DNA from: Gammaproteobacteria bacterium
GTDB lineage: Bacteria; Pseudomonadota; Gammaproteobacteria; QZLD01
Assembly: GCA_033852135.1 (NCBI GenBank)
Contig: JAWSVB010000016.1
Span: 100,938 to 164,937 of the forward strand
Length of the DNA stretch: 64,000 bases
Direction: 5' to 3'
Position 1 is the first letter of the stretch; the number at the start of each line of letters is the position of its first letter. The translations under genes and the position numbers were made by a program. The notes below the pieces were generated by a model. That model was not told the DNA's origin, ran no database searches, and saw nothing but the letters and a program-made list of their open reading frames with translations. Of the stretch, positions 1 through 7,348 are shown one piece after another.

Positions 1-74
1 TATTCAAGGTAATAGATATTAGCCCGCTTTGAATGCAGTATTGTTTTCAGGTCTGATGGTGATAGATCTTTCAT
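1..74 (-). CDS. cas1: Type I-F CRISPR-associated Cas1, N-terminal 24 codons (gene runs off the left edge)
   Basis: Manual translation from ATG at 74 gives MKDLSPSDLKTILHSKRANIYYLE, matching the characteristic I-F Cas1 N-terminus (SPSxLKTILHSKRANxYYL). AGGA RBS just upstream. Not in the ORF track. Confidence 0.88.
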   Translation of the reverse strand, partial: MKDLSPSDLKTILHSKRANIYYLE

Positions 75-91
75 TTTATTCCTGATTATTT

Positions 92-123
92 TGTTGGGCT
101 TCGCAAGCTCAGCACCAACCTAC
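92..123 (-). repeat. GTAG-type REP hairpin
   Basis: Minus strand GTAGGTTGGTGCTGAGCTTGCGAAGCCCAACA: GTAG tetranucleotide followed by an imperfect palindrome. Confidence 0.65.
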
Positions 124-156
124 TTTTTCTGGATACCGGCCTTCGCCGGTATGACG
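124..156 (-). repeat. CGTC-type REP hairpin, identical to 16063-16095
   Basis: TTTTTCTGGATACCGGCCTTCGCCGGTATGACG is an exact 33-bp match to the copy after ppsA; stem ATACCGGC/GCCGGTAT. Confidence 0.85.
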
Positions 157-164
157 TTTTCTTT

Positions 165-194
165 CTGGATTGCCTGATCAAATCTGGTAATGAT
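165..194 (-). repeat. Degenerate third REP-like unit
   Basis: CTGGATTGCCTGATCAAATCTGGTAATGAT has the same TGGAT...ATGA frame as the neighbouring REP and an imperfect stem. Confidence 0.5.
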
Positions 195-211
195 ATTTTT
201 ACCTTTAACCT

Positions 212-245
212 ATTTTACAAACCGGTTGTGTCAAAACCTGTCATA
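212..245 (-). promoter_or_regulatory. Candidate WYL operator and promoter for cas1
   Basis: Minus strand TATGACAGGTTTTGACAC-AACCGGTTTG-TAAAAT: TGACA-N5-TGACA pseudo-palindrome, then 10 nt, then a -10-like hexamer. Confidence 0.5.
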
Positions 246-246
246 G

Positions 247-1212
247 CTAATAATTTTTTAACGCCTTTCTTAATCTGTTTGTTACTTCTTCCTTTAGTGT
301 TTGTGGTTCCAGTACTTTTACATCTGCTCCGTATTTAAGTATGTCCATAACCAGCTCCATATCTTTTGAATATGGAAGTTGCAAGATATAGCTACCATCT
401 TTTTGCAGCTCCCCTTTTTGTTCCGGGTGCCACTGTTCGTCTATCACCCATCTTGCTCTTTCAGGTGTGAATTGCAGTTTTGCAATATTTTTTGCATCTC
501 CGGTGAATATGCCATATGAGCTGAGAACGTGTTTATCAAGCTGGTTTAAGCTAATTTTTTCAGCTTTGCTTTTTTGGATAGTTGCTTGCTGAATTTGGTC
601 TATGGAAAAGATTCTGAATTGTTCGCGTAAGTGGCATTTTGCCTCTAAGTACCAGTTGCTACGGTAATATGTCATTCTTTGCGGGGATACGGTTCTTGTA
701 TTTGTTTTGTTGCTACCTCTAGACAGGTATATGATATCTAGCTTCTTGCTCTGTACTAATGCGCTGGATACGTTTTTGAATATTTTTTCATCTACTCTTC
801 TACTGCCAATCTTTTCTATACGAAATTTATGATCTGCATCTTGTGGAGCAATTTTAGATAACTGTAAGATTGAGTCTATTTTTTTGTTAAGTGGTGATAT
901 TTGGTTTTCAAACAACCCTTTTTCTATGCTTTTAAGTTGTTGTTTAATTGTTAGTAGTGCGGATATCTCGGAAACGTTAAACCATATTCCAGGAAGCTCA
1001 AAACTGGTTTGCTGTTTTTTATTATAATAATAACCACCATTTTCTCTATCCGTTTCTATCGGGGCATCAAAGTAAAGCCGCAGTTCATCAACAACTCTTC
1101 TAACAGTTCTTTCAGAGCACTCGAGCTCCTGCTTCAACTTAGATGTTGATACTGAATAATTAGACAACTTTAGTATTTGGTGTAATGTATATATCCTTGA
1201 GAACTTATCCAT
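247..1212 (-). CDS. WYL-domain transcriptional regulator (HTH-WYL-WCX, YafY/PafC-like)
   Basis: wHTH (LECSERTVRRVVDELR), RTVSPQRM..NWYLEA..RIFSID WYL motif, WCX (ILKYGADVKVLEP). Start placed at ATG 1212 after a GGGGG RBS rather than 1251. Confidence 0.93.
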   Translation of the reverse strand: MDKFSRIYTLHQILKLSNYSVSTSKLKQELECSERTVRRVVDELRLYFDAPIETDRENGGYYYNKKQQTSFELPGIWFNVSEISALLTIKQQLKSIEKGLFENQISPLNKKIDSILQLSKIAPQDADHKFRIEKIGSRRVDEKIFKNVSSALVQSKKLDIIYLSRGSNKTNTRTVSPQRMTYYRSNWYLEAKCHLREQFRIFSIDQIQQATIQKSKAEKISLNQLDKHVLSSYGIFTGDAKNIAKLQFTPERARWVIDEQWHPEQKGELQKDGSYILQLPYSKDMELVMDILKYGADVKVLEPQTLKEEVTNRLRKALKNY

Positions 1213-1486
1213 GCTTTCACCCCCATAACAACCATTTGCTGATGATACCATATGGTTTTTACGCTGTAACTAAACCCCAAAATATTATTAGTATCCCTGA
1301 GTTTCCCTTTTATTAATGGGTGAATTACATATGGATTAAGGCAAGAAAAAATAGGTTATTTCACACATAAATGTAACTTCCAGGCTTTGTATTAATTATA
1401 TAATGAGTTAGTTCGACCGCTGTTATCTTTGCCCAAATTATTCTACTTAAAGTTAGTGGGCAGCAACATAAGGATAAAAAGTACTG

Positions 1487-2458
1487 CTACCAGGTACAGT
1501 CTGGATGATGGCTCTTAAGAAACTCTTTATAAGCAGGGACAGGGTATCCCATATGTGTGGCGCTGTATGGCAGCTTAATTGAAGATCCTGATCGATTAGA
1601 CATTTTATCTATCTTGGATATTTTTTTAATCGACTTTTCCACAGCAGCACGCGTTTTATATCCGAATACCCCATCGATTTTTCCTTTCAGGTATCCGTGC
1701 TTTTTTAAACAGGTCTGAATTGGAACTAAATATGTGTAAGAGTCACTGGCAATATTTGAGAACAGTTTATCTCGACTTACCCCGCTTATCCATTTTTTAT
1801 TGGCATATTTCTTAACAGCTAATTCTCCTCTTGCAGCCCAATTCCCCATAGCTCCACCGTATTTATGGAAAATGACCTGGTACCCCATAACCTCCAGTCT
1901 TTCTAAAGGTTCTCCCCAGATTTTCCGCTCCTCCCGGTCTATTTTCATCTGTGCTTCACGCGCAATTACCTCAGCTTTCTGTTTACGCCTCTCTTCGGTT
2001 TGCACAGCAGCTCTTTCCTGATTGACTTCATTAAATGGCCTTTGATGAACACCAAATAACATAAGTAACAGTCCAATAATCAATGGCCCAACTGTTATCA
2101 GGAATGTCCATGGTTTTCCTATATAGTGTGCGATAACATTAAAAACACTGGTGATAAAACAAAAAAACATAATCCAGTAAACCACTATTAAGCCTAAACA
2201 CAATTCTCCATTAACTGCAGAATAAATGTAATCTGTTGGGACCATTAATGGCACGCCGATGGCATAATTATAAATATTCAGAATTAATCTGAATGGCAGG
2301 ATATATAGATCCTGCTGTTCATGCATATCTCGTAAGGCATATGGAAAAGCAGCTACTACCAATATAATCCAAAGAAAGGTAAAGCCCTCACCGAGCTGTT
2401 TGGCAGGAACAGAAACTCCATTTACTGTAACGTTTATATTGTCTAATTTATTACTCAC
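1487..2458 (-). CDS. Hypothetical membrane protein with a C-terminal peptidoglycan-binding-like motif
   Basis: About 4 hydrophobic segments, a charged coiled segment, and IQTCLKKHGYLKGKIDGVFGYKTRAAV resembling PG_binding_1. Confidence 0.6.
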   Translation of the reverse strand: MSNKLDNINVTVNGVSVPAKQLGEGFTFLWIILVVAAFPYALRDMHEQQDLYILPFRLILNIYNYAIGVPLMVPTDYIYSAVNGELCLGLIVVYWIMFFCFITSVFNVIAHYIGKPWTFLITVGPLIIGLLLMLFGVHQRPFNEVNQERAAVQTEERRKQKAEVIAREAQMKIDREERKIWGEPLERLEVMGYQVIFHKYGGAMGNWAARGELAVKKYANKKWISGVSRDKLFSNIASDSYTYLVPIQTCLKKHGYLKGKIDGVFGYKTRAAVEKSIKKISKIDKMSNRSGSSIKLPYSATHMGYPVPAYKEFLKSHHPDCTW

Positions 2459-2599
2459 AAGTCATATCCTTTTAACAGTGTAGAAGCGGCTTACCATAGC
2501 AACCTAACAATGTTACCACTGTATTCTTCTAGAACAAAAAAATCTCAACCACATATTACCTATGTGCATATACCAAACCATTAGCTAAAGGAGTTTATT

Positions 2600-3070
2600 A
2601 TGCACAGTAATGATAAATACGAGATTGATCGTTCTCCTGAATCATTAAAGATTCTTGAGCAAGCCGCATCGATAATTGAGGCGAAGTTTAAAAGGGGGGA
2701 GCAGTTTTCTTCTGCTGAAGATTCTAAGAAGTTTTTAACCTATAAACTTGCCGGTTATGAGCGGGAGGTTTTTGCTGCTCTTCTGCTTGATAATCAAAAT
2801 CGTCTGATTGAGTATAAGGTGTTGTTCTACGGCACTATCAATAGCACCACAGTTCATCCTAGAGAGATTGTTAAGGTTATTCTTAATGTGAATGCAGCTG
2901 CCGTTATCTTTGCCCATAATCATCCTTCTGGTGAATCAAAGCCGTCATCTGATGATATTGCTTTGACAAAAACCTTATCGCAAATCTTAAAACAGATCGA
3001 TGTACCTGTTGTTGATCATATAGTTATTGGTAAGGAGGCTTACTCTTTTGCTGAGAATGGATTACTTTAA
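2600..3070 (+). CDS. radC: RadC-like JAB-domain protein (short, mobile-element type)
   Basis: EREVF, HPREIVK, AHNHPSG..PS..D, DHIVIG motifs. Confidence 0.93.
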   Translation: MHSNDKYEIDRSPESLKILEQAASIIEAKFKRGEQFSSAEDSKKFLTYKLAGYEREVFAALLLDNQNRLIEYKVLFYGTINSTTVHPREIVKVILNVNAAAVIFAHNHPSGESKPSSDDIALTKTLSQILKQIDVPVVDHIVIGKEAYSFAENGLL

Positions 3071-3084
3071 AACTTCAGAGTACG

Positions 3085-3118
3085 GCATAAAAGGGCATTT
3101 GCCCTTTTATGCTTTTTA
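3085..3118. terminator. Probably bidirectional intrinsic terminator between radC and alpA
   Basis: 13-bp inverted repeat GCATAAAAGGGCA/TGCCCTTTTATGC followed by a T-run. Confidence 0.75.
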
Positions 3119-3304
3119 TTGTGTTTCATCCCTGCTTTCTATTTTAGATGATATCCAGTCATCAATTTCATTATCAATCCAGGCCACTGCTCTTCCCCCC
3201 AAAGACACAGGTTTTGGGAATTTATCCTCTGCTATGTATCTGTAGATAGTTGCCTTTGATAGACCCGTAATTTCGAGTATCTCTTTAATTCGTACGAACT
3301 TCAT
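3116..3304 (-). CDS. alpA: AlpA-family regulator / recombination directionality factor
   Basis: TGLSKATIYRYI..FPKPVSLGGRAVAW..EIDDW; GGAGG RBS. Confidence 0.92.
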   Translation of the reverse strand: MKFVRIKEILEITGLSKATIYRYIAEDKFPKPVSLGGRAVAWIDNEIDDWISSKIESRDETQ

Positions 3305-3420
3305 GTTTAATCCTCCGTATCAGTTCGATATATAGAGAAGACATGTAAAGAAATACTTACCGGTGACATGATTCAAAATTTATTAAGCCATATATTACTA
3401 ATAAAAAAAGCAATAAAAGA

Positions 3421-4092
3421 CTAATTTATACTGCAACCAAAAGAGTTACTTCGATCCCCGTAGTTTTTTGTATGAGCCTTTGCCAAGTAACTTACCCTCT
3501 TAATGGCTTCCATAAGCTGCTGGTCAAACTCATGACTATTCTTATCAACGCGATGAACAGATTTATTTTTGGATATATAAACCAGAGGATATGCTTTGCG
3601 CAGCTCTACACCAAGAGCACTTGCCCATGCCTCCACGAGCATAGCAGTAAGACCATTCCCCCCTTTCCATTCGGGGCTTATGTAGTTATATACATCCGTA
3701 TTCAGGAAAAGCGCTACATGATAATGATCAAGTTCGCTAGTTTTTCTTTCCTTAGCCCAAACATATCGAACTCCTGTACTTCGCACAGTTTTGCAGAAAG
3801 CAAATTTACGATGATAGTGAGCATTTATCTTCGCCTTTATTGAATTAATAAACCTAGAAATAAGGCTTTTGTTGCTGGAATAATAGCGGTCATCTACAAG
3901 AAATATTTTTGAAAGGGATAGATCAAAACGGAATACTGCCGTTCTAGGGTGTTCAGCTATAGCCTTCCCAAAAACTTCATTTATTCGTTCCATATATTCA
4001 GCAATTAATATTCGCTTATCGACATACTTCCCATAAAATACTTTACCCTCAAATTTTGTAAGGTTTTTATTGGATTTAATTTGTTTTGGCAT
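3421..4092 (-). CDS. YagK/YfjJ (inovirus Gp2-like) protein, putative HUH replication initiator
   Basis: HPRTAVFRFDL, YVWAKE..DHYHVAL (HUH), RVSYLAK (YxxK), terminal FGCS. Confidence 0.82.
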   Translation of the reverse strand: MPKQIKSNKNLTKFEGKVFYGKYVDKRILIAEYMERINEVFGKAIAEHPRTAVFRFDLSLSKIFLVDDRYYSSNKSLISRFINSIKAKINAHYHRKFAFCKTVRSTGVRYVWAKERKTSELDHYHVALFLNTDVYNYISPEWKGGNGLTAMLVEAWASALGVELRKAYPLVYISKNKSVHRVDKNSHEFDQQLMEAIKRVSYLAKAHTKNYGDRSNSFGCSIN

Positions 4093-4759
4093 TTTAGCCT
4101 CCTATAAAGTTTTAATTCCATATAAGAGGTTGTGTATGTACTTTTTTATTGTTTAATTTTTTTACCTTTAATATTTATATATTAAACATACCGCCAGTTA
4201 TTTAGTCTGAAAGGACAACTTTTTATAGGTATTCGCTGGGATTTATTGCCTTAATAGAAGAAAAATTACTCTGCTAATAAATCCAAAGATCAGAATTCTA
4301 TTTGCGGAAAATGGATAACCTAACACATTAAACAAACTAAGAGGCTGGAGGCCAAAACGAAATACGGTTGCCTTTGGATATTACACTCATGCTTTTAGAA
4401 TAAAATGGTGAGCCTTTCTAAACATTATTAATTAACACACCACCAACATAAAATACCTATCTTTAAGATTAGGCAAGATCCTTATTTGATTTAATAAATT
4501 TTAGAGTAGTATTAACATATAATTAATATAAACAAGAAAAGTAGCAAGTTATTTTTTATATTTCTCTTATTTATCAATATAATCTGGCTTAGTTAGAGCA
4601 GTCATAGTTATGGTTTTATTACGCTAATATAATTGTTTTATGATGCAATTCTCATATATTTTGTATGCTTTTGTTATAGTTTTGTTATAGCGCAACGTTG
4701 AATACTATTTATCTTATTACATCCATTATTATTTAAACAACAGAGCCGTAATACTAAAC

Positions 4760-5908
4760 ATGATCAAAGAATCATCAAATTTTTTTGGAAAATTGAGCGA
4801 GAGGGAAAGTTATTGGTTATGCATTGCCATCTATAATCCAATAACTCTAGCTCCGTTACTAAAATCGACGACACATAGAACAAATTTGATATTAATAGAC
4901 CAAGCAATAAGAAATCACCTTAAACAACATCCTAATGATGAAAATTATTTACCTGAACTATATTTATACTGGGATAATATGATCCTTGATGAACATGAAT
5001 TTGACTGGATAGATCCAACAAATGAAAGGCTATGCTATTGGGCTTGGCTATATATAAATAAATTCAATGTAATGACACAACTTAGTACAGCAGCTATACA
5101 ACCTCAAGATGTGAGACACACAAACTATCCATCACAAGAAAATAAAAGTATGCGCGAAGATGAATACTGGAGTTTACTAAATGAGCGAGTTAATAATAGA
5201 TGGGGACGTAAAGAAGAGCAGCCAGATTATTCTCAAGACACCGACGCCAATACTGACGATTCAATGTCAAATAACACGAGCACTTCTATACCTGCTCAAG
5301 ACAACTTAAAACCACTTGTTCCAATACTTACAAACGCTAAAGAAAAGCGTACCCAAACAATTACATCAATTGATCGCATACTTCTACCAATACTTAGCTA
5401 TGAAGACAAGCTAAGATACATTACAACAATGAAATCGGATTTGGCATACTGCATATCAAAAGTGAATCACAGTTGGCTAAATAAAGAAAATGAGAACCAG
5501 GTAGATTGGGCCTGGGACTACTTCTTCGACAAAATCATAAGTACAAATGATTTAGATGCTAATATATGCCAAAAACCAATTACTCAAAGAGACAAATTTA
5601 ACACTATTATCGCATGCATAGACTTATGCTATACATCAGAACAAAAAGGCCTACCAATCAAACTCGGCAATAACGAGTCTATTGAAAAAGTGCTTGAAAG
5701 GGCAAAAGGGGCATGGAGGGGAAAAATCAAACGTGACGCCAAAGATACCGAGCTTGCAAAAGAATTACCCATAACCAAACAAAGCCAGAAACAACTTATT
5801 GAGATTCAAACAACAATGGATCAACCAATCAAAAAGGTATTGATGGATTTGATTAAGGATGAATACGATAAGTTACCAGATCAGACCAAGAAAACAAAAG
5901 ATAACTAG
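4760..5908 (+). CDS. Hypothetical island protein with a duplicated Trp-rich motif
   Basis: 382-aa ORF converging on the integrase with a 4-bp overlap; FDWIDPTNERLCYWAWLYI and HSWLNKENENQVDWAWDYF. Confidence 0.75.
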   Translation: MIKESSNFFGKLSERESYWLCIAIYNPITLAPLLKSTTHRTNLILIDQAIRNHLKQHPNDENYLPELYLYWDNMILDEHEFDWIDPTNERLCYWAWLYINKFNVMTQLSTAAIQPQDVRHTNYPSQENKSMREDEYWSLLNERVNNRWGRKEEQPDYSQDTDANTDDSMSNNTSTSIPAQDNLKPLVPILTNAKEKRTQTITSIDRILLPILSYEDKLRYITTMKSDLAYCISKVNHSWLNKENENQVDWAWDYFFDKIISTNDLDANICQKPITQRDKFNTIIACIDLCYTSEQKGLPIKLGNNESIEKVLERAKGAWRGKIKRDAKDTELAKELPITKQSQKQLIEIQTTMDQPIKKVLMDLIKDEYDKLPDQTKKTKDN

Positions 5909-7095
5909 CGAGAAATCCGCTCAGACCACCACTCCATCATTTCCCTACGCCTCTCAACATACTGAGCGCGGTTATAGGCAGATCTAACCTGATTCTTATC
6001 CACATGCGCCAAAGCAGCCTCGATAATATCGGGATCAAAGCCTTGCTCGTTAAGAGTGGTGCTAGCTAAAGCTCTCATGCCATGAGCTGTAAGCCTACCC
6101 TTAAATCCCATTCTTTTAAGAGCAACATTGGCGGTCGAATTGTTAGCACAACGCCTAGGATCTATATCAGATGGAAACAAGAATTCAAACTTACCGGATA
6201 TCTCACGCAGCTTTTCTAGAATAGCTATTGCCTGATCTGTTAACGGTATTACATGCTCTCTTCTTTTTTTCATACGCTCCGGGGGGATGATCCATATTTT
6301 TTGTTCCAGGTCTATTTCATCCCACCTGGCACCAGCTGCCTCGCCAGGACGGGTCATTGTGTGTAATTGCCACAGAAGCATGTATCTGGTCACCTTGCGA
6401 ATATTTGCATCATAAATAGCATCTATAAGCATAGGAAGCTCTTCAGGCTTAAGTGTCGGGTAGTTTTTGGTCTTTGGGGTGTGAAATGCAGCTCGAATAC
6501 CAACTAAAGGATTACTCTTAATAATGCCTACGTTAGTAGCATAGGTCATAACCTCATTTAATCTCTGACAAATACGCTTAATCATTTCCAGTTTGCCGGT
6601 TTTGCTTAATAGCTGGAGCGTCTCTATAACCTCTGGCGCATTTACATCATGTATTGACTGATTACCAAGCTTAGGAAAGATATGATTCTCAAGTGAACCG
6701 ATAATATCCTGTGCATAGCCGTCGGTTATCTTGGCTTTTTTAAGTTCAAACCACTGTCTTGTTACCAGTTCTAATGTCTGGGATTTTTTCCTTAGCTGCT
6801 CTTTTTGAATATTTTTTAAATGCTGCTTTGGATCAATACCGTTTGCCAGGAGAGACCTATATTCTTTGGCGATCTTTCTGGCATCTTCCAATGTTAATGG
6901 CGGAAAAGTACCTAGTGAGATATTAGCCCTTTTCTTCTCTGGAGTTGGTCGATAGTAATTAAACAGCCAACTTTTAGCCCCATTGGGCCTTACCCTTAAC
7001 ATCAGGCCATCACCATCGGCAAGATTATATTCTTTATCCTTTGGTTTAGCATATTTTACTTGTGTAAATGATAGTGAAACTGTCTTTCTAGCCAT
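5905..7095 (-). CDS. P4-like tyrosine integrase
   Basis: Arm-binding N-terminus (DGDGLMLRV), catalytic R (TRPGE), HGMR, LAH, AYNR; adjacent to the tRNA 3' end. Confidence 0.96.
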   Translation of the reverse strand: MARKTVSLSFTQVKYAKPKDKEYNLADGDGLMLRVRPNGAKSWLFNYYRPTPEKKRANISLGTFPPLTLEDARKIAKEYRSLLANGIDPKQHLKNIQKEQLRKKSQTLELVTRQWFELKKAKITDGYAQDIIGSLENHIFPKLGNQSIHDVNAPEVIETLQLLSKTGKLEMIKRICQRLNEVMTYATNVGIIKSNPLVGIRAAFHTPKTKNYPTLKPEELPMLIDAIYDANIRKVTRYMLLWQLHTMTRPGEAAGARWDEIDLEQKIWIIPPERMKKRREHVIPLTDQAIAILEKLREISGKFEFLFPSDIDPRRCANNSTANVALKRMGFKGRLTAHGMRALASTTLNEQGFDPDIIEAALAHVDKNQVRSAYNRAQYVERRREMMEWWSERISR

Positions 7096-7098
7096 TTT

Positions 7099-7152
7099 AG
7101 TAACATCGCTTTTTATTTTGTCATCTAGTGTTACTTAAAATGTTACTAAAAC
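7099..7152. promoter_or_regulatory. Putative integrase arm-type sites
   Basis: TGTTACT twice in direct repeat (about 7130 and 7141) and inverted AGTAACA at about 7099, between the int start and the tRNA. Confidence 0.45.
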
Positions 7153-7260
7153 TGTGAGATTTTGCAATACCGCCTGAGACTCAACGAGACCACAAACACT
7201 GATATTCTATTGTTTTTACAGGAGTTTTAAGGGTTTATGACACTTTGTGAGATTTAGACA

Positions 7261-7348
7261 TGGCGGACAGGGAGGGATTCGAACCCTCGGTACGTTACCG
7301 TACACACACTTTCCAGGCGTGCTCTTTCGGCCACTCAGACACCTGTCC
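7261..7348 (-). tRNA. tRNA-Ser (anticodon GGA)
   Basis: GGACAGG/CCTGTCC acceptor stem, CT-GGA-AA anticodon loop, long variable arm, GGTTCGAATCC, encoded CCA; 88 nt. Confidence 0.97.

What the first reader, a model, noticed from the sequence alone, without database searches (positions are those of the whole stretch)
1..1212. WYL regulator directly upstream of an unannotated type I-F cas1
Seen: the first 24 codons of a protein with the I-F Cas1 N-terminus start at 74 on the minus strand, 172 bp downstream of and co-oriented with an HTH-WYL-WCX gene. Known: WYL proteins sense nucleic acids (PafBC, DriD) and control defence operons (BrxR, CapW). Inference: this is a ligand-inducible I-F CRISPR-Cas operon under a dedicated WYL regulator.
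Basis: partly seen in the sequence, partly recalled or inferred. Interest (0 to 1): 0.78.

Follow-up and report, generated by a model that had tools for sequence, protein, structure and literature searches.

The report
WYL regulator gene preceding I-F CRISPR-Cas
A DNA-sensing regulator gene sits directly in front of a complete type I-F CRISPR-Cas immune system and probably switches it on through a conserved binding site in the cas1 promoter, an arrangement that is common and already described in outline.

Summary
The 24 codons at window 74-3 (minus strand) open a 321-aa Cas1f. It is followed on the contig by cas2-3, csy1-3, cas6f and an 85-repeat array. The gene at 247-1212 encodes an HTH-WYL-WCX protein.

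The synteny is common. 16 of 42 I-F cas1 loci examined in the class carry this WYL family directly upstream and co-oriented. Homologues also precede I-C, I-E and I-G cas3 genes.

New here: 3 nt after the WYL stop lies an inverted repeat, TGACA-N5-TGACA, then 11 nt, then a -10-like TAAAAT. This composite element recurs in 13 of 27 family loci against 26 of 2750 control windows. Its half-site co-varies with the recognition helix. It matches the published DdaA motif core (GWCA-N5-TGWC).

The geometry (site over the -35 position, fixed distance to -10) resembles DriD and PafBC. DriD is the top structural match, and 4 of 5 DriD ssDNA-contact residues are conserved.

Best reading: a locally encoded, ssDNA-responsive activator of the cas1 promoter; a repressor reading is not excluded.

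WYL-CRISPR linkage, WYL genes near I-F cas1, and WYL (DdaA) control of an I-F system are already published. This is a new member of a known kind.

The parts
3..74 (-). First 24 codons of cas1f. The gene continues left of the window to 321 aa (C27:100046-101011).
   Evidence: TIGR03637 482.7 bits, cut-off 150. AGGAA Shine-Dalgarno 5 nt before the ATG.
88..160 (-). Two REP-like palindromic dispersed repeats inserted in the predicted cas1 leader (about 124-160 and 88-123).
   Evidence: blastn-short of the 172-nt gap against the genome gave 45 further matches of 15-70 nt on many contigs. They fold as two hairpins; leader MFE -35.3 kcal/mol, z -3.47. No U-tract follows them on the minus strand.
212..217 (-). 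-10-like hexamer TAAAAT of the predicted cas1 promoter. The predicted transcription start is near window 205.
   Evidence: An nAnnnT hexamer at this fixed 11-12 nt distance from the inverted repeat recurs in 13 of 27 family loci.
229..243 (.). Predicted WYL operator: imperfect inverted repeat TGACA-GGTTT-TGACA (4 of 5 pairs), starting 3 nt after the WYL stop codon and covering about -38 to -24 of the predicted promoter.
   Evidence: The core equals the published DdaA motif GWCA-N5-TGWC (PMC12392091). It is the only such composite site in the genome that lies upstream of a gene.
247..1212 (-). HTH-WYL-WCX transcription factor gene, 321 aa (YafY/WYL family; matches a CRISPR-associated 'WYL' profile).
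   Evidence: Pfam. PADLOC WYL profile PDLC01457, E 2e-41. AF2 model with pLDDT 77. Foldseek top hit DriD 8tp8, E 3.4e-16.
1242..1270 (-). Predicted sigma-70 promoter of the WYL gene (GTTACA-17 nt-TATCAT with a TG extension). No operator-like repeat nearby.
   Evidence: a consensus match only; the number of such sites in the region does not exceed shuffles. No inverted repeat within 300 nt upstream of the WYL start.

Best explanation
The gene at window 247-1212 encodes a homodimer-type HTH-3HB-WYL-WCX transcription factor. It is part of the I-F CRISPR-Cas module and acts locally on it. It is probably expressed from its own promoter, without autoregulation through this operator. Its wHTH domains bind the inverted repeat TGACA-N5-TGACA (window 243-229) that starts 3 nt after its own stop codon. 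That repeat covers the -35 position of a cas1 promoter that has a -10 hexamer (217-212) but no properly spaced -35. By analogy with its closest structural relatives (DriD, PafBC) and with DdaA, which recognises the same half-site core, single-stranded DNA produced by DNA damage or phage attack binds the WYL domain and frees the DNA-binding domains. The dimer then recruits RNA polymerase and switches on cas1-cas2/3-csy1-csy2-csy3-cas6f. Shown here: the gene content, the synteny, and the conserved element with its co-variation with the recognition helix. Inferred: binding to that element, the direction of control (activation), and the ligand.
For: (1) Complete I-F operon and 85-repeat array downstream.
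(2) The WYL gene travels with the cas genes, not with the flanks. The congener G001 has WYL (74% identity) -> cas1 (88%) -> cas2-3 -> csy1, but its flank genes map to G000 contig C22 (about 92% identity). G000's tRNA-Ser flank maps to a different G001 contig.
(3) 16 of 42 I-F cas1 loci carry the family gene directly upstream and co-oriented.
(4) Homologues at 36-46% identity sit directly upstream of I-C cas3 (4 loci; L024 checked by NCBIfam, the other three assigned by blastp clustering with it), I-E cas3 (1) and I-G cas3 (1), out of 14 non-congeneric loci fetched.
(5) The composite element (inverted repeat + 11-12 nt + nAnnnT) occurs in the 175 nt around the WYL stop in 13 of 27 loci, against 26 of 2750 control windows of the same loci. 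The repeat starts 2-41 nt after the stop in 15 of the 16 loci listed.
(6) Among I-F loci without an adjacent WYL gene, 1 of 16 has such a repeat within 400 nt upstream of cas1.
(7) Recognition-helix residue 35 co-varies with the half-site: Ala with GCTCA (6 of 6 loci), Arg/Lys/Ser with G[AT]CA (8 of 8 loci).
(8) The DdaA motif CGWCA-N5-TGWCG is experimentally bound, and DdaA activates the A. baumannii I-F cas genes after DNA damage (PMC12392091, sections read).
(9) DriD binds a palindrome overlapping the -35 position at a fixed distance from -10, in promoters lacking a -35 (PMC13004042, passages). PafBC reads a GTC at -23 to -28 (PMC8635444, passages). Here the promoter-proximal G[AT]C falls at about -27 to -25.
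(10) Foldseek ranks DriD (E 3.4e-16) and PafBC (6e-15) above CapW (5e-11) and BrxR (1.2e-10).
(11) The DriD ssDNA contacts Y168, R178, Y192 and R204 align with Y162, R173, Y188 and R200, all invariant in a 20-sequence family alignment.
(12) The repeat is absent upstream of the WYL gene itself, and only one convincing case was found among 24 loci. This is unlike auto-repressing BrxR/CapW.
Against: - No transcript, transcription start site or binding data exist for this organism, and no RNA run was listed.
- The motif definition was derived from the same loci on which it was then counted, and related loci are not independent. The p-value is therefore inflated, and the helix/half-site co-variation could partly reflect two clades.
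- 14 of 27 loci fail the filter (some show weaker versions by eye). The own site is an imperfect palindrome that failed the first, stricter filter.
- In the window the right half-site makes a perfect TTGACA with a TAGGTT 16 nt downstream. That alternative sigma-70 reading would make a bound dimer a repressor.
- DriD R176 is Asn171 here.
- No intrinsic terminator separates the WYL gene from cas1, so read-through transcription could supply cas expression independent of the site.
Confidence: 0.55

Rival explanations
1. Same operator, opposite sign. The WYL dimer sits on the repeat over the -35 region and represses cas1 transcription, as BrxR, CapW and Sll7009 do for their systems. ssDNA or another infection cue releases it.
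For: Defence-linked WYL proteins characterised so far are mostly repressors that bind inverted repeats in the promoter of the linked system (passages of bioRxiv 10.1101/2025.11.13.688357; PMC9122601). Sll7009 represses a I-D locus (cited in PMC4012209). In the window the right half-site forms TTGACA with TAGGTT 16 nt downstream, so a bound dimer would occlude a usable -35. CapW also binds ssDNA (PDB 9c5g title).
Against: The consistently conserved hexamer lies 11-12 nt from the repeat, not 16-18 nt. A hexamer at sigma-70 spacing is poor in most other loci (sequences). The fold and profile are closer to the activators DriD and PafBC than to BrxR or CapW. There is no operator upstream of the regulator's own gene, unlike BrxR/CapW. 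DdaA, with the same half-site core, is an activator of I-F cas genes.
Confidence: 0.25
2. The WYL gene is simply the first gene of the cas transcript. Regulation, if any, happens at the promoter upstream of the WYL gene, and the repeat after the stop codon is a weak hairpin or attenuator rather than a protein site.
For: The genes are co-oriented, gaps in other loci are as short as 41-105 nt, and no intrinsic terminator lies on the coding strand between them. A sigma-70-like promoter precedes the WYL gene.
Against: The stem is only 5-6 bp with no U-tract. The half-site sequence, not just the pairing, is conserved across families in two classes that track the recognition helix. A -10-like hexamer is held at a fixed distance. 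The repeat matches an experimentally bound WYL motif.
Confidence: 0.1
3. The WYL protein regulates something else (for example the adjacent tRNA-Ser island genes, or a DNA-damage regulon in trans), and its position next to cas1 is incidental.
For: 6 of 14 non-congeneric family loci fetched have non-CRISPR neighbours such as rmuC or pepN. DdaA in Moraxellaceae is a global regulator. An integrase/AlpA island lies on the other side of the gene.
Against: In G001 the WYL-cas pair is conserved while both flanks differ. A genome-wide scan found 5 composite sites, about the number expected by chance by my own estimate, and only the cas1 one precedes a gene. The family gene is present at 16 of 42 I-F loci.
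Confidence: 0.07

Closest known systems
[quoted passage not shown]
   Same: HTH-WYL-WCX architecture. Palindromic site with the same core and spacing (GWCA-N5-TGWC). Controls a type I-F CRISPR-Cas operon. Not autoregulated in Acinetobacter. The paper states that, before its transfer into Moraxellaceae, DdaA was a putative regulator of genes near its own locus.
   Different: DdaA is a global regulator encoded away from cas and has replaced the SOS system. Its motif has outer C/G and is reported about 50 bp upstream of the start site. Here the regulator is encoded next to cas1, the genome has one site, and that site centres near -31 of the predicted promoter. Sequence relatedness to DdaA could not be tested because no DdaA sequence was available to the tools.
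DriD of Caulobacter crescentus (PDB 8tp8, 9pfq; PMC9186387, PMC13004042)
   Same: Top structural match (E 3.4e-16). Homodimer-type wHTH-3HB-WYL-WCX. Palindromic site overlapping the -35 position at a fixed distance from -10, in promoters without a -35 hexamer. 4 of 5 ssDNA-contact residues conserved.
   Different: About 20% sequence identity. The DriD site is ATACGAC-N7-GTCGTAT (N7 rather than N5 spacing). DriD controls DNA-damage genes, not CRISPR-Cas.
PafBC of mycobacteria (PMC8635444)
   Same: Best PDB sequence match over WYL-WCX (profile E 4.3e-26). Hybrid promoter with a -10 and a GTC-containing element at -23 to -28, and no -35.
   Different: PafBC is a heterodimer or fusion of two WYL proteins, and only one HTH reads DNA. 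Here there is a single gene and a two-fold symmetric site.
BrxR / CapW defence-associated WYL repressors (PMC9122601; PDB 7qfz, 7t8k, 7tb5)
   Same: WYL regulators encoded at the head of defence loci. BrxR-family genes co-localise with CRISPR-Cas in 21 of 210 associated systems. They bind inverted repeats.
   Different: Weaker fold and profile similarity (Foldseek E 1e-10 to 5e-11). Their operators lie upstream of their own gene and they autorepress. No such site exists upstream of this gene.
WYL/HTH genes near cas1 of Shewanella and Vibrio I-F1 systems (PMC12887000) and the CRISPR-associated WYL profiles (Makarova 2014, PMC4012209; PADLOC PDLC01457)
   Same: The same synteny was noted descriptively. 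This protein matches the PADLOC CRISPR-associated WYL profile over its whole length (E 2e-41).
   Different: The passages and sections of those works that I read describe no operator, promoter geometry or direction of control.

Membership tests
[quoted passage not shown] | Cas1f and the fused Cas2-3f | tested here: met
   TIGR03637 482.7 bits (cut-off 150); TIGR02562 1094.8 bits (cut-off 566).
[quoted passage not shown] | Csy1, Csy2, Csy3 and Cas6f effector genes | tested here: met
   TIGR02564, TIGR02565, TIGR02566 and TIGR02563, all above cut-off.
[quoted passage not shown] | Adjacent CRISPR array with 28-nt repeats and 32-nt spacers | tested here: met
   85 repeat copies with a 60-nt period downstream of cas6f.
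Class A WYL transcription factors (wHTH-WYL-WCX) | N-terminal HTH, central WYL and C-terminal WCX domains | tested here: met
   Pfam HTH_11, WYL and WCX above cut-offs. The AF2 model also shows three helices at residues 80-129 where DriD has its 3HB domain.
Class A WYL transcription factors (wHTH-WYL-WCX) | Conserved basic and aromatic ligand (ssDNA) pocket in the WYL domain | tested here: met
   Y162, R173, Y188 and R200 align with DriD Y168, R178, Y192 and R204 and are invariant in the family. DriD R176 corresponds to N171. Ligand binding itself was not tested.
DdaA family | Recognises the palindrome CGWCA-N5-TGWCG | tested here: inconclusive
   A site with the core GWCA-N5-TGWC lies in the cas1 promoter, but the outer bases differ (T/A) and binding was not tested.
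DdaA family | Membership of the monophyletic DdaA cluster by sequence | not testable with these tools
   No DdaA sequence was available. The supplementary figures (S3, S4B) of PMC12392091 could not be opened.
DdaA family | [quoted passage not shown] | tested here: not met
   The site centres about 31 nt upstream of the predicted start. The start is predicted, not measured.
DriD-type activation | Palindromic site overlapping the -35 position, fixed distance to -10, no -35 hexamer | tested here: met
   An 11-12 nt spacer to nAnnnT in 13 of 27 loci. The sigma-70 scan finds no canonical promoter in the gap. Computational only.
BrxR/CapW family | Operator in the promoter upstream of the regulator's own gene (autorepression) | tested here: not met
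   No repeat within 300 nt upstream of this gene. 5 of 24 loci pass the loose repeat filter, and only 1 of them is convincing.
PafBC | Two WYL paralogues forming a heterodimer or fusion | tested here: not met
   A single 321-aa gene. It is the only family match in the genome.

The most novel reading that the evidence does not exclude
The WYL gene, its operator and a -35-less promoter form a portable cassette placed in front of type I CRISPR-Cas operons of at least four subtypes (I-F, I-C, I-G, probably I-E). The cassette makes their transcription depend on a DriD-like, ssDNA-triggered activator. On this reading, a large share of gammaproteobacterial I-F systems (16 of 42 sampled) are off by default and are switched on by a DNA-damage or infection signal sensed by a regulator encoded in cis.
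Probability: 0.4. Interest if true: 0.6.

Novelty: new member of a known kind. Interest (0 to 1): 0.38.

Why it matters
How CRISPR-Cas expression is tied to infection is still poorly understood for most systems. This locus, and the many like it, offers a compact and testable unit: one regulator gene, one 15-bp site, one promoter. It could show whether type I systems are induced by ssDNA through an activator that replaces -35 recognition. It also links the trans-acting DdaA regulon of Acinetobacter to a probably older, cis-encoded form. For annotation, the practical points are that cas1 here is real and complete, and that the WYL gene belongs to the cas module rather than to the neighbouring integrase island.

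Tried and rejected
- **Terminator reading of the repeat.** Rejected. The stem is 5-6 bp with no U-tract, and the sequence, not only the pairing, is conserved.
- **Larger regulon in G000.** The genome scan for GWCA-N5-TGWC-N12-13-TAnnnT gave 5 hits, roughly what I estimated for chance. Four of them lie inside ORFs or have no downstream gene.
- **Autoregulation.** No repeat lies upstream of the WYL gene.
- **Strict palindrome filter.** It missed the window's own site. The relaxed filter was then used, so the definition is post hoc.
- **The search for related loci in genome contigs.** It returned a single locus (the congener), so the genome search was used instead.
- **Expression data.** No RNA holder was listed by the look-up of sequencing runs.
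- **Island boundaries.** A 16-nt repeat of the tRNA-Ser 3' end lies 63 kb to the left. My estimate of chance is about 0.002. The flanks map to different contigs of G001, so an empty site could not be shown and the question is left open.
- The alignment used wrong coordinates for three reversed loci and is disregarded. One search replaces it.
- **Supplements.** The supplementary files of PMC12392091 (Fig. S4B, the gene neighbourhoods of DdaA homologues) may already show part of what is reported here. I could not see them.
- **G043 (unpublished).** It appears only in the tally and as a WYL-only hit.
- **Rows dropped from counts.** G251 (limited access) was left out of the 43 I-F genomes. L088 has only 130 nt upstream of cas1 and counts as a miss. 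L028 and L035 are contigs too short to show neighbours. L062 and L075 were left out of the helix comparison because their N-termini run off the fetched stretch.
Full report
**What is there**

The window is G000:C27:100938-164937. On the minus strand an ATG at window 74 opens a frame that runs off the left edge. On the contig it continues to 321 aa and is a type I-F Cas1 (TIGR03637, 482.7 bits, cut-off 150). Downstream, on the same strand, lie:
- Cas2-3f, 1117 aa
- Csy1, 512 aa
- Csy2, 374 aa
- Csy3, 340 aa
- Cas6f, 209 aa

All are above their NCBIfam cut-offs. An array of 85 repeats with a 60-nt period follows.

Upstream of cas1, after a 172-nt gap, the gene at 247-1212 encodes a 321-aa protein with HTH_11, WYL and WCX domains.

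**Which neighbour does the WYL gene belong to?**

To its right lie a membrane protein with a peptidoglycan-binding motif, RadC, AlpA, a YfjJ-like protein, an unknown ORF, a P4-type integrase and tRNA-Ser(GGA). Together these look like an integrative island.

A congeneric genome (G001, titled as a Gammaproteobacteria MAG) has the same order: WYL (74% identity), cas1 (88%), cas2-3 (47%), csy1 (31%). There, the genes upstream of WYL are about 92% identical to genes on a different G000 contig, C22. G000's tRNA-Ser flank maps to yet another G001 contig. The WYL gene therefore travels with the cas genes, not with the island.

**How common is the synteny?**

Among 401 genomes of the class, 43 have an I-F cas1. 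I examined 42 of these loci; G251 was skipped because access is limited. A profile built from this WYL family finds a full-length member (E <= 1e-81) directly upstream of and co-oriented with cas1 in 14 of 30 loci and 2 of 12. That is 16 of 42, including G000 and G001. The gaps between the WYL stop and the cas1 start in the first 14 loci range from 41 to 730 nt.

In the other direction, 17 of 61 related genomes have a strong full-length homologue. I fetched 14 non-congeneric neighbourhoods; G043 was left out as unpublished. The gene directly downstream and co-oriented is:
- I-C cas3 in 4 loci. L024 was confirmed by NCBIfam; L025, L027 and L030 were assigned by blastp clustering with it.
- I-E cas3 in 1 locus.
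- I-G cas3 in 1 locus.
- Non-CRISPR genes (rmuC, pepN and others) in 6 loci.
- Two contigs were too short to tell.

The family is large: 3107 clusters at E <= 1e-20, named YafY family or WYL domain protein where named at all. The window's protein also matches PADLOC's CRISPR-associated WYL profile end to end (E 2e-41) and the first 316 positions of a Cas3c profile (E 1e-18).

**A conserved element between the two genes**

Three nucleotides after the WYL stop codon, reading the minus strand, the sequence is:
- TGACAGGTTTTGACA (window 243-229)
- caaccggtttg (the 11-nt spacer)
- TAAAAT (window 217-212)

The same layout recurs in distant loci. It consists of an inverted repeat nGWCA-N5-TGWCn or GCTCA-N5-TGAGC, an 11-12 nt spacer, and an nAnnnT hexamer.

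With a fixed filter it occurs in the 175 nt around the WYL stop in 13 of 27 family loci, against 26 of 2750 control windows from the same loci. The repeat begins 2-41 nt after the stop in 15 of the 16 loci tabulated; four of those 16 sites were picked by eye. The filter was designed after seeing the data, and the loci are related, so the nominal p-value of about 9e-20 overstates the case. The excess is large all the same.

Three further observations bear on the element:
- Among I-F loci without an adjacent WYL gene, 1 of 16 has such a repeat upstream of cas1.
- Upstream of the WYL genes themselves the repeat is essentially absent. None is present in the window, and only one convincing case appears among 24 loci.
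- In G000 a genome-wide scan finds five composite sites, about what I estimated for chance. Only the cas1 one precedes a gene.

**Co-variation**

In the alignment of the regulators, residue 35 of the recognition helix is Ala in all 6 loci with GCTCA half-sites. It is Arg, Lys or Ser in all 8 loci with G[AT]CA half-sites, including the window. This supports the repeat being the cognate operator. The two classes may also be two clades.

**Comparison with characterised WYL regulators**

- **DdaA of Acinetobacter.** It binds CGWCA-N5-TGWCG, acts as an activator, and is needed for full transcription and interference by the native I-F system, more so after UV (PMC12392091; sections 28-32 and passages read). 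The core and spacing of that motif equal the site found here. The authors also say that, before its transfer into Moraxellaceae, DdaA was a putative regulator of genes near its own locus. The figure showing this is supplementary and I could not open it.
- **DriD.** It binds a palindrome that overlaps the -35 position at a fixed distance from -10, in promoters lacking a -35 hexamer, and it recruits RNA polymerase (PMC13004042, passages).
- **PafBC.** It reads a GTC at -23 to -28 of promoters that have a -10 and no -35 (PMC8635444, passages).

If TAAAAT is the -10, the promoter-proximal G[AT]C here falls at about -27 to -25 and the repeat spans about -38 to -24. The sigma-70 scan finds no canonical promoter in the gap.

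**Structure and ligand pocket**

An AlphaFold2 model (pLDDT 77) matches DriD best (E 3.4e-16), then PafBC (6e-15), then CapW (5e-11) and BrxR (1.2e-10). A family profile ranks PDB sequences the same way.

The DriD ssDNA-contact residues are Y168, R176, R178, Y192 and R204 (PMC9186387). They align with Y162, N171, R173, Y188 and R200. Four of the five are kept, and those four are invariant in the family alignment.

**Most likely mechanism**

The regulator is made from its own promoter; a GTTACA-17-TATCAT match lies at 1270-1242 (consensus match only). ssDNA generated by damage or infection binds the WYL domain. The dimer binds the repeat over the -35 position. RNA polymerase is recruited to the -10, and the cas operon is transcribed.

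I put this at about 0.55. The same site used for repression is the main rival, at 0.25. In the window the right half-site happens to form TTGACA with a TAGGTT 16 nt downstream, which would suit occlusion. Most defence-linked WYL proteins studied so far are repressors. Read-through from the WYL promoter is possible as well, since no intrinsic terminator lies on the coding strand.

**The long leader**

In G001 the hexamer is 32 nt from the cas1 ATG; in the window it is 137 nt. The extra sequence is two REP-like palindromic repeats, which have 45 further partial or full matches across the genome and fold into two stable hairpins. Their effect on cas1 expression is unknown.

**Novelty**

The following are already in print:
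- WYL-CRISPR linkage (PMC4012209, passages).
- BrxR-family co-localisation with CRISPR-Cas, 21 of 210 systems (PMC9122601, passages).
- WYL or HTH genes near cas1 of Shewanella and Vibrio I-F1 loci (PMC12887000, section 5 and passages).
- WYL control of an I-F system by DdaA.

My searches found no paper in the held library that describes the operator-promoter cassette next to cas1 or tests a cis-encoded WYL regulator of a I-F system. The library is not complete, and supplements were closed. I therefore file this as a new member of a known kind, with a modestly new mechanistic hypothesis.

**Limits**

- Everything about binding, direction of control and ligand is inferred.
- The organism is an uncultured MAG. 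The only sequencing runs that hold the stretch are plastisphere metagenomes from one study, so tests need a heterologous host or a cultured carrier of the cassette.

Noticed in passing
window 1487-7348: An integrative-island-like block sits next to tRNA-Ser(GGA) at 7261-7348 (minus). It holds a P4-type integrase (5905-7095), an unknown 382-aa ORF, a YagK/YfjJ-like protein, AlpA, RadC and a membrane protein with a PG_binding_1 motif. In G001 the sequence next to the same tRNA is unrelated (no tblastx hit), so this is a variable integration site.
   Followed up: partly
G000:C27:45209-45224 and window 7260-7275: A 16-nt direct repeat of the tRNA-Ser 3' end (ATGGCGGACAGGGAGG) lies 63 kb to the left. 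The pair brackets the integrase block, the WYL gene, the whole I-F locus, about 35 kb more, and a tRNA-Sec gene. My estimate of chance is about 0.002. It may mark a large or composite island carrying the CRISPR-Cas system. An empty site could not be shown.
   Followed up: partly
window 88-160: Two REP-like palindromic repeat units are inserted in the cas1 leader. Related copies (15-70 nt matches) occur 45 more times on many contigs of the genome.
   Followed up: partly
L003 / L038 (G001) versus G000 cas genes: Between the two congeners Cas1 is 88% and the WYL protein 74% identical, but Cas2-3 is only 47% and Csy1 31%, while flanking core genes are about 92%. The effector genes are far more diverged than the adaptation and regulator genes. 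A similar pattern was reported for Shewanella/Vibrio I-F loci in PMC12887000.
   Followed up: no
L001:6199-11267 (left of the window): The 85-repeat array has two repeat variants (…GCCGCCTGTGCGGCGG… and …GCCGCCTATGCGGCGG…) and a degenerate terminal repeat at the end far from cas6f.
   Followed up: no
window 247-1212 (protein): The whole protein aligns to the first 316 positions of PADLOC's 1009-position Cas3c profile (E 1e-18). Some I-C Cas3 proteins therefore seem to carry this HTH-WYL-WCX module as an N-terminal fusion, as Makarova et al. 2014 mention for WYL-Cas3 fusions.
   Followed up: no
L064, L062, L071, L075 (I-F loci of other genomes): In several loci the gap between the WYL cassette and cas1 is 286-730 nt and seems to hold small ORFs, so the predicted promoter would first drive an extra small gene. 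These ORFs were not examined.
   Followed up: no
L026, L028: In two genomes the same regulator-operator cassette precedes an rmuC-like gene instead of cas genes. RmuC domains have been tied to phage defence (title of PMC10270631 seen in the listing).
   Followed up: no
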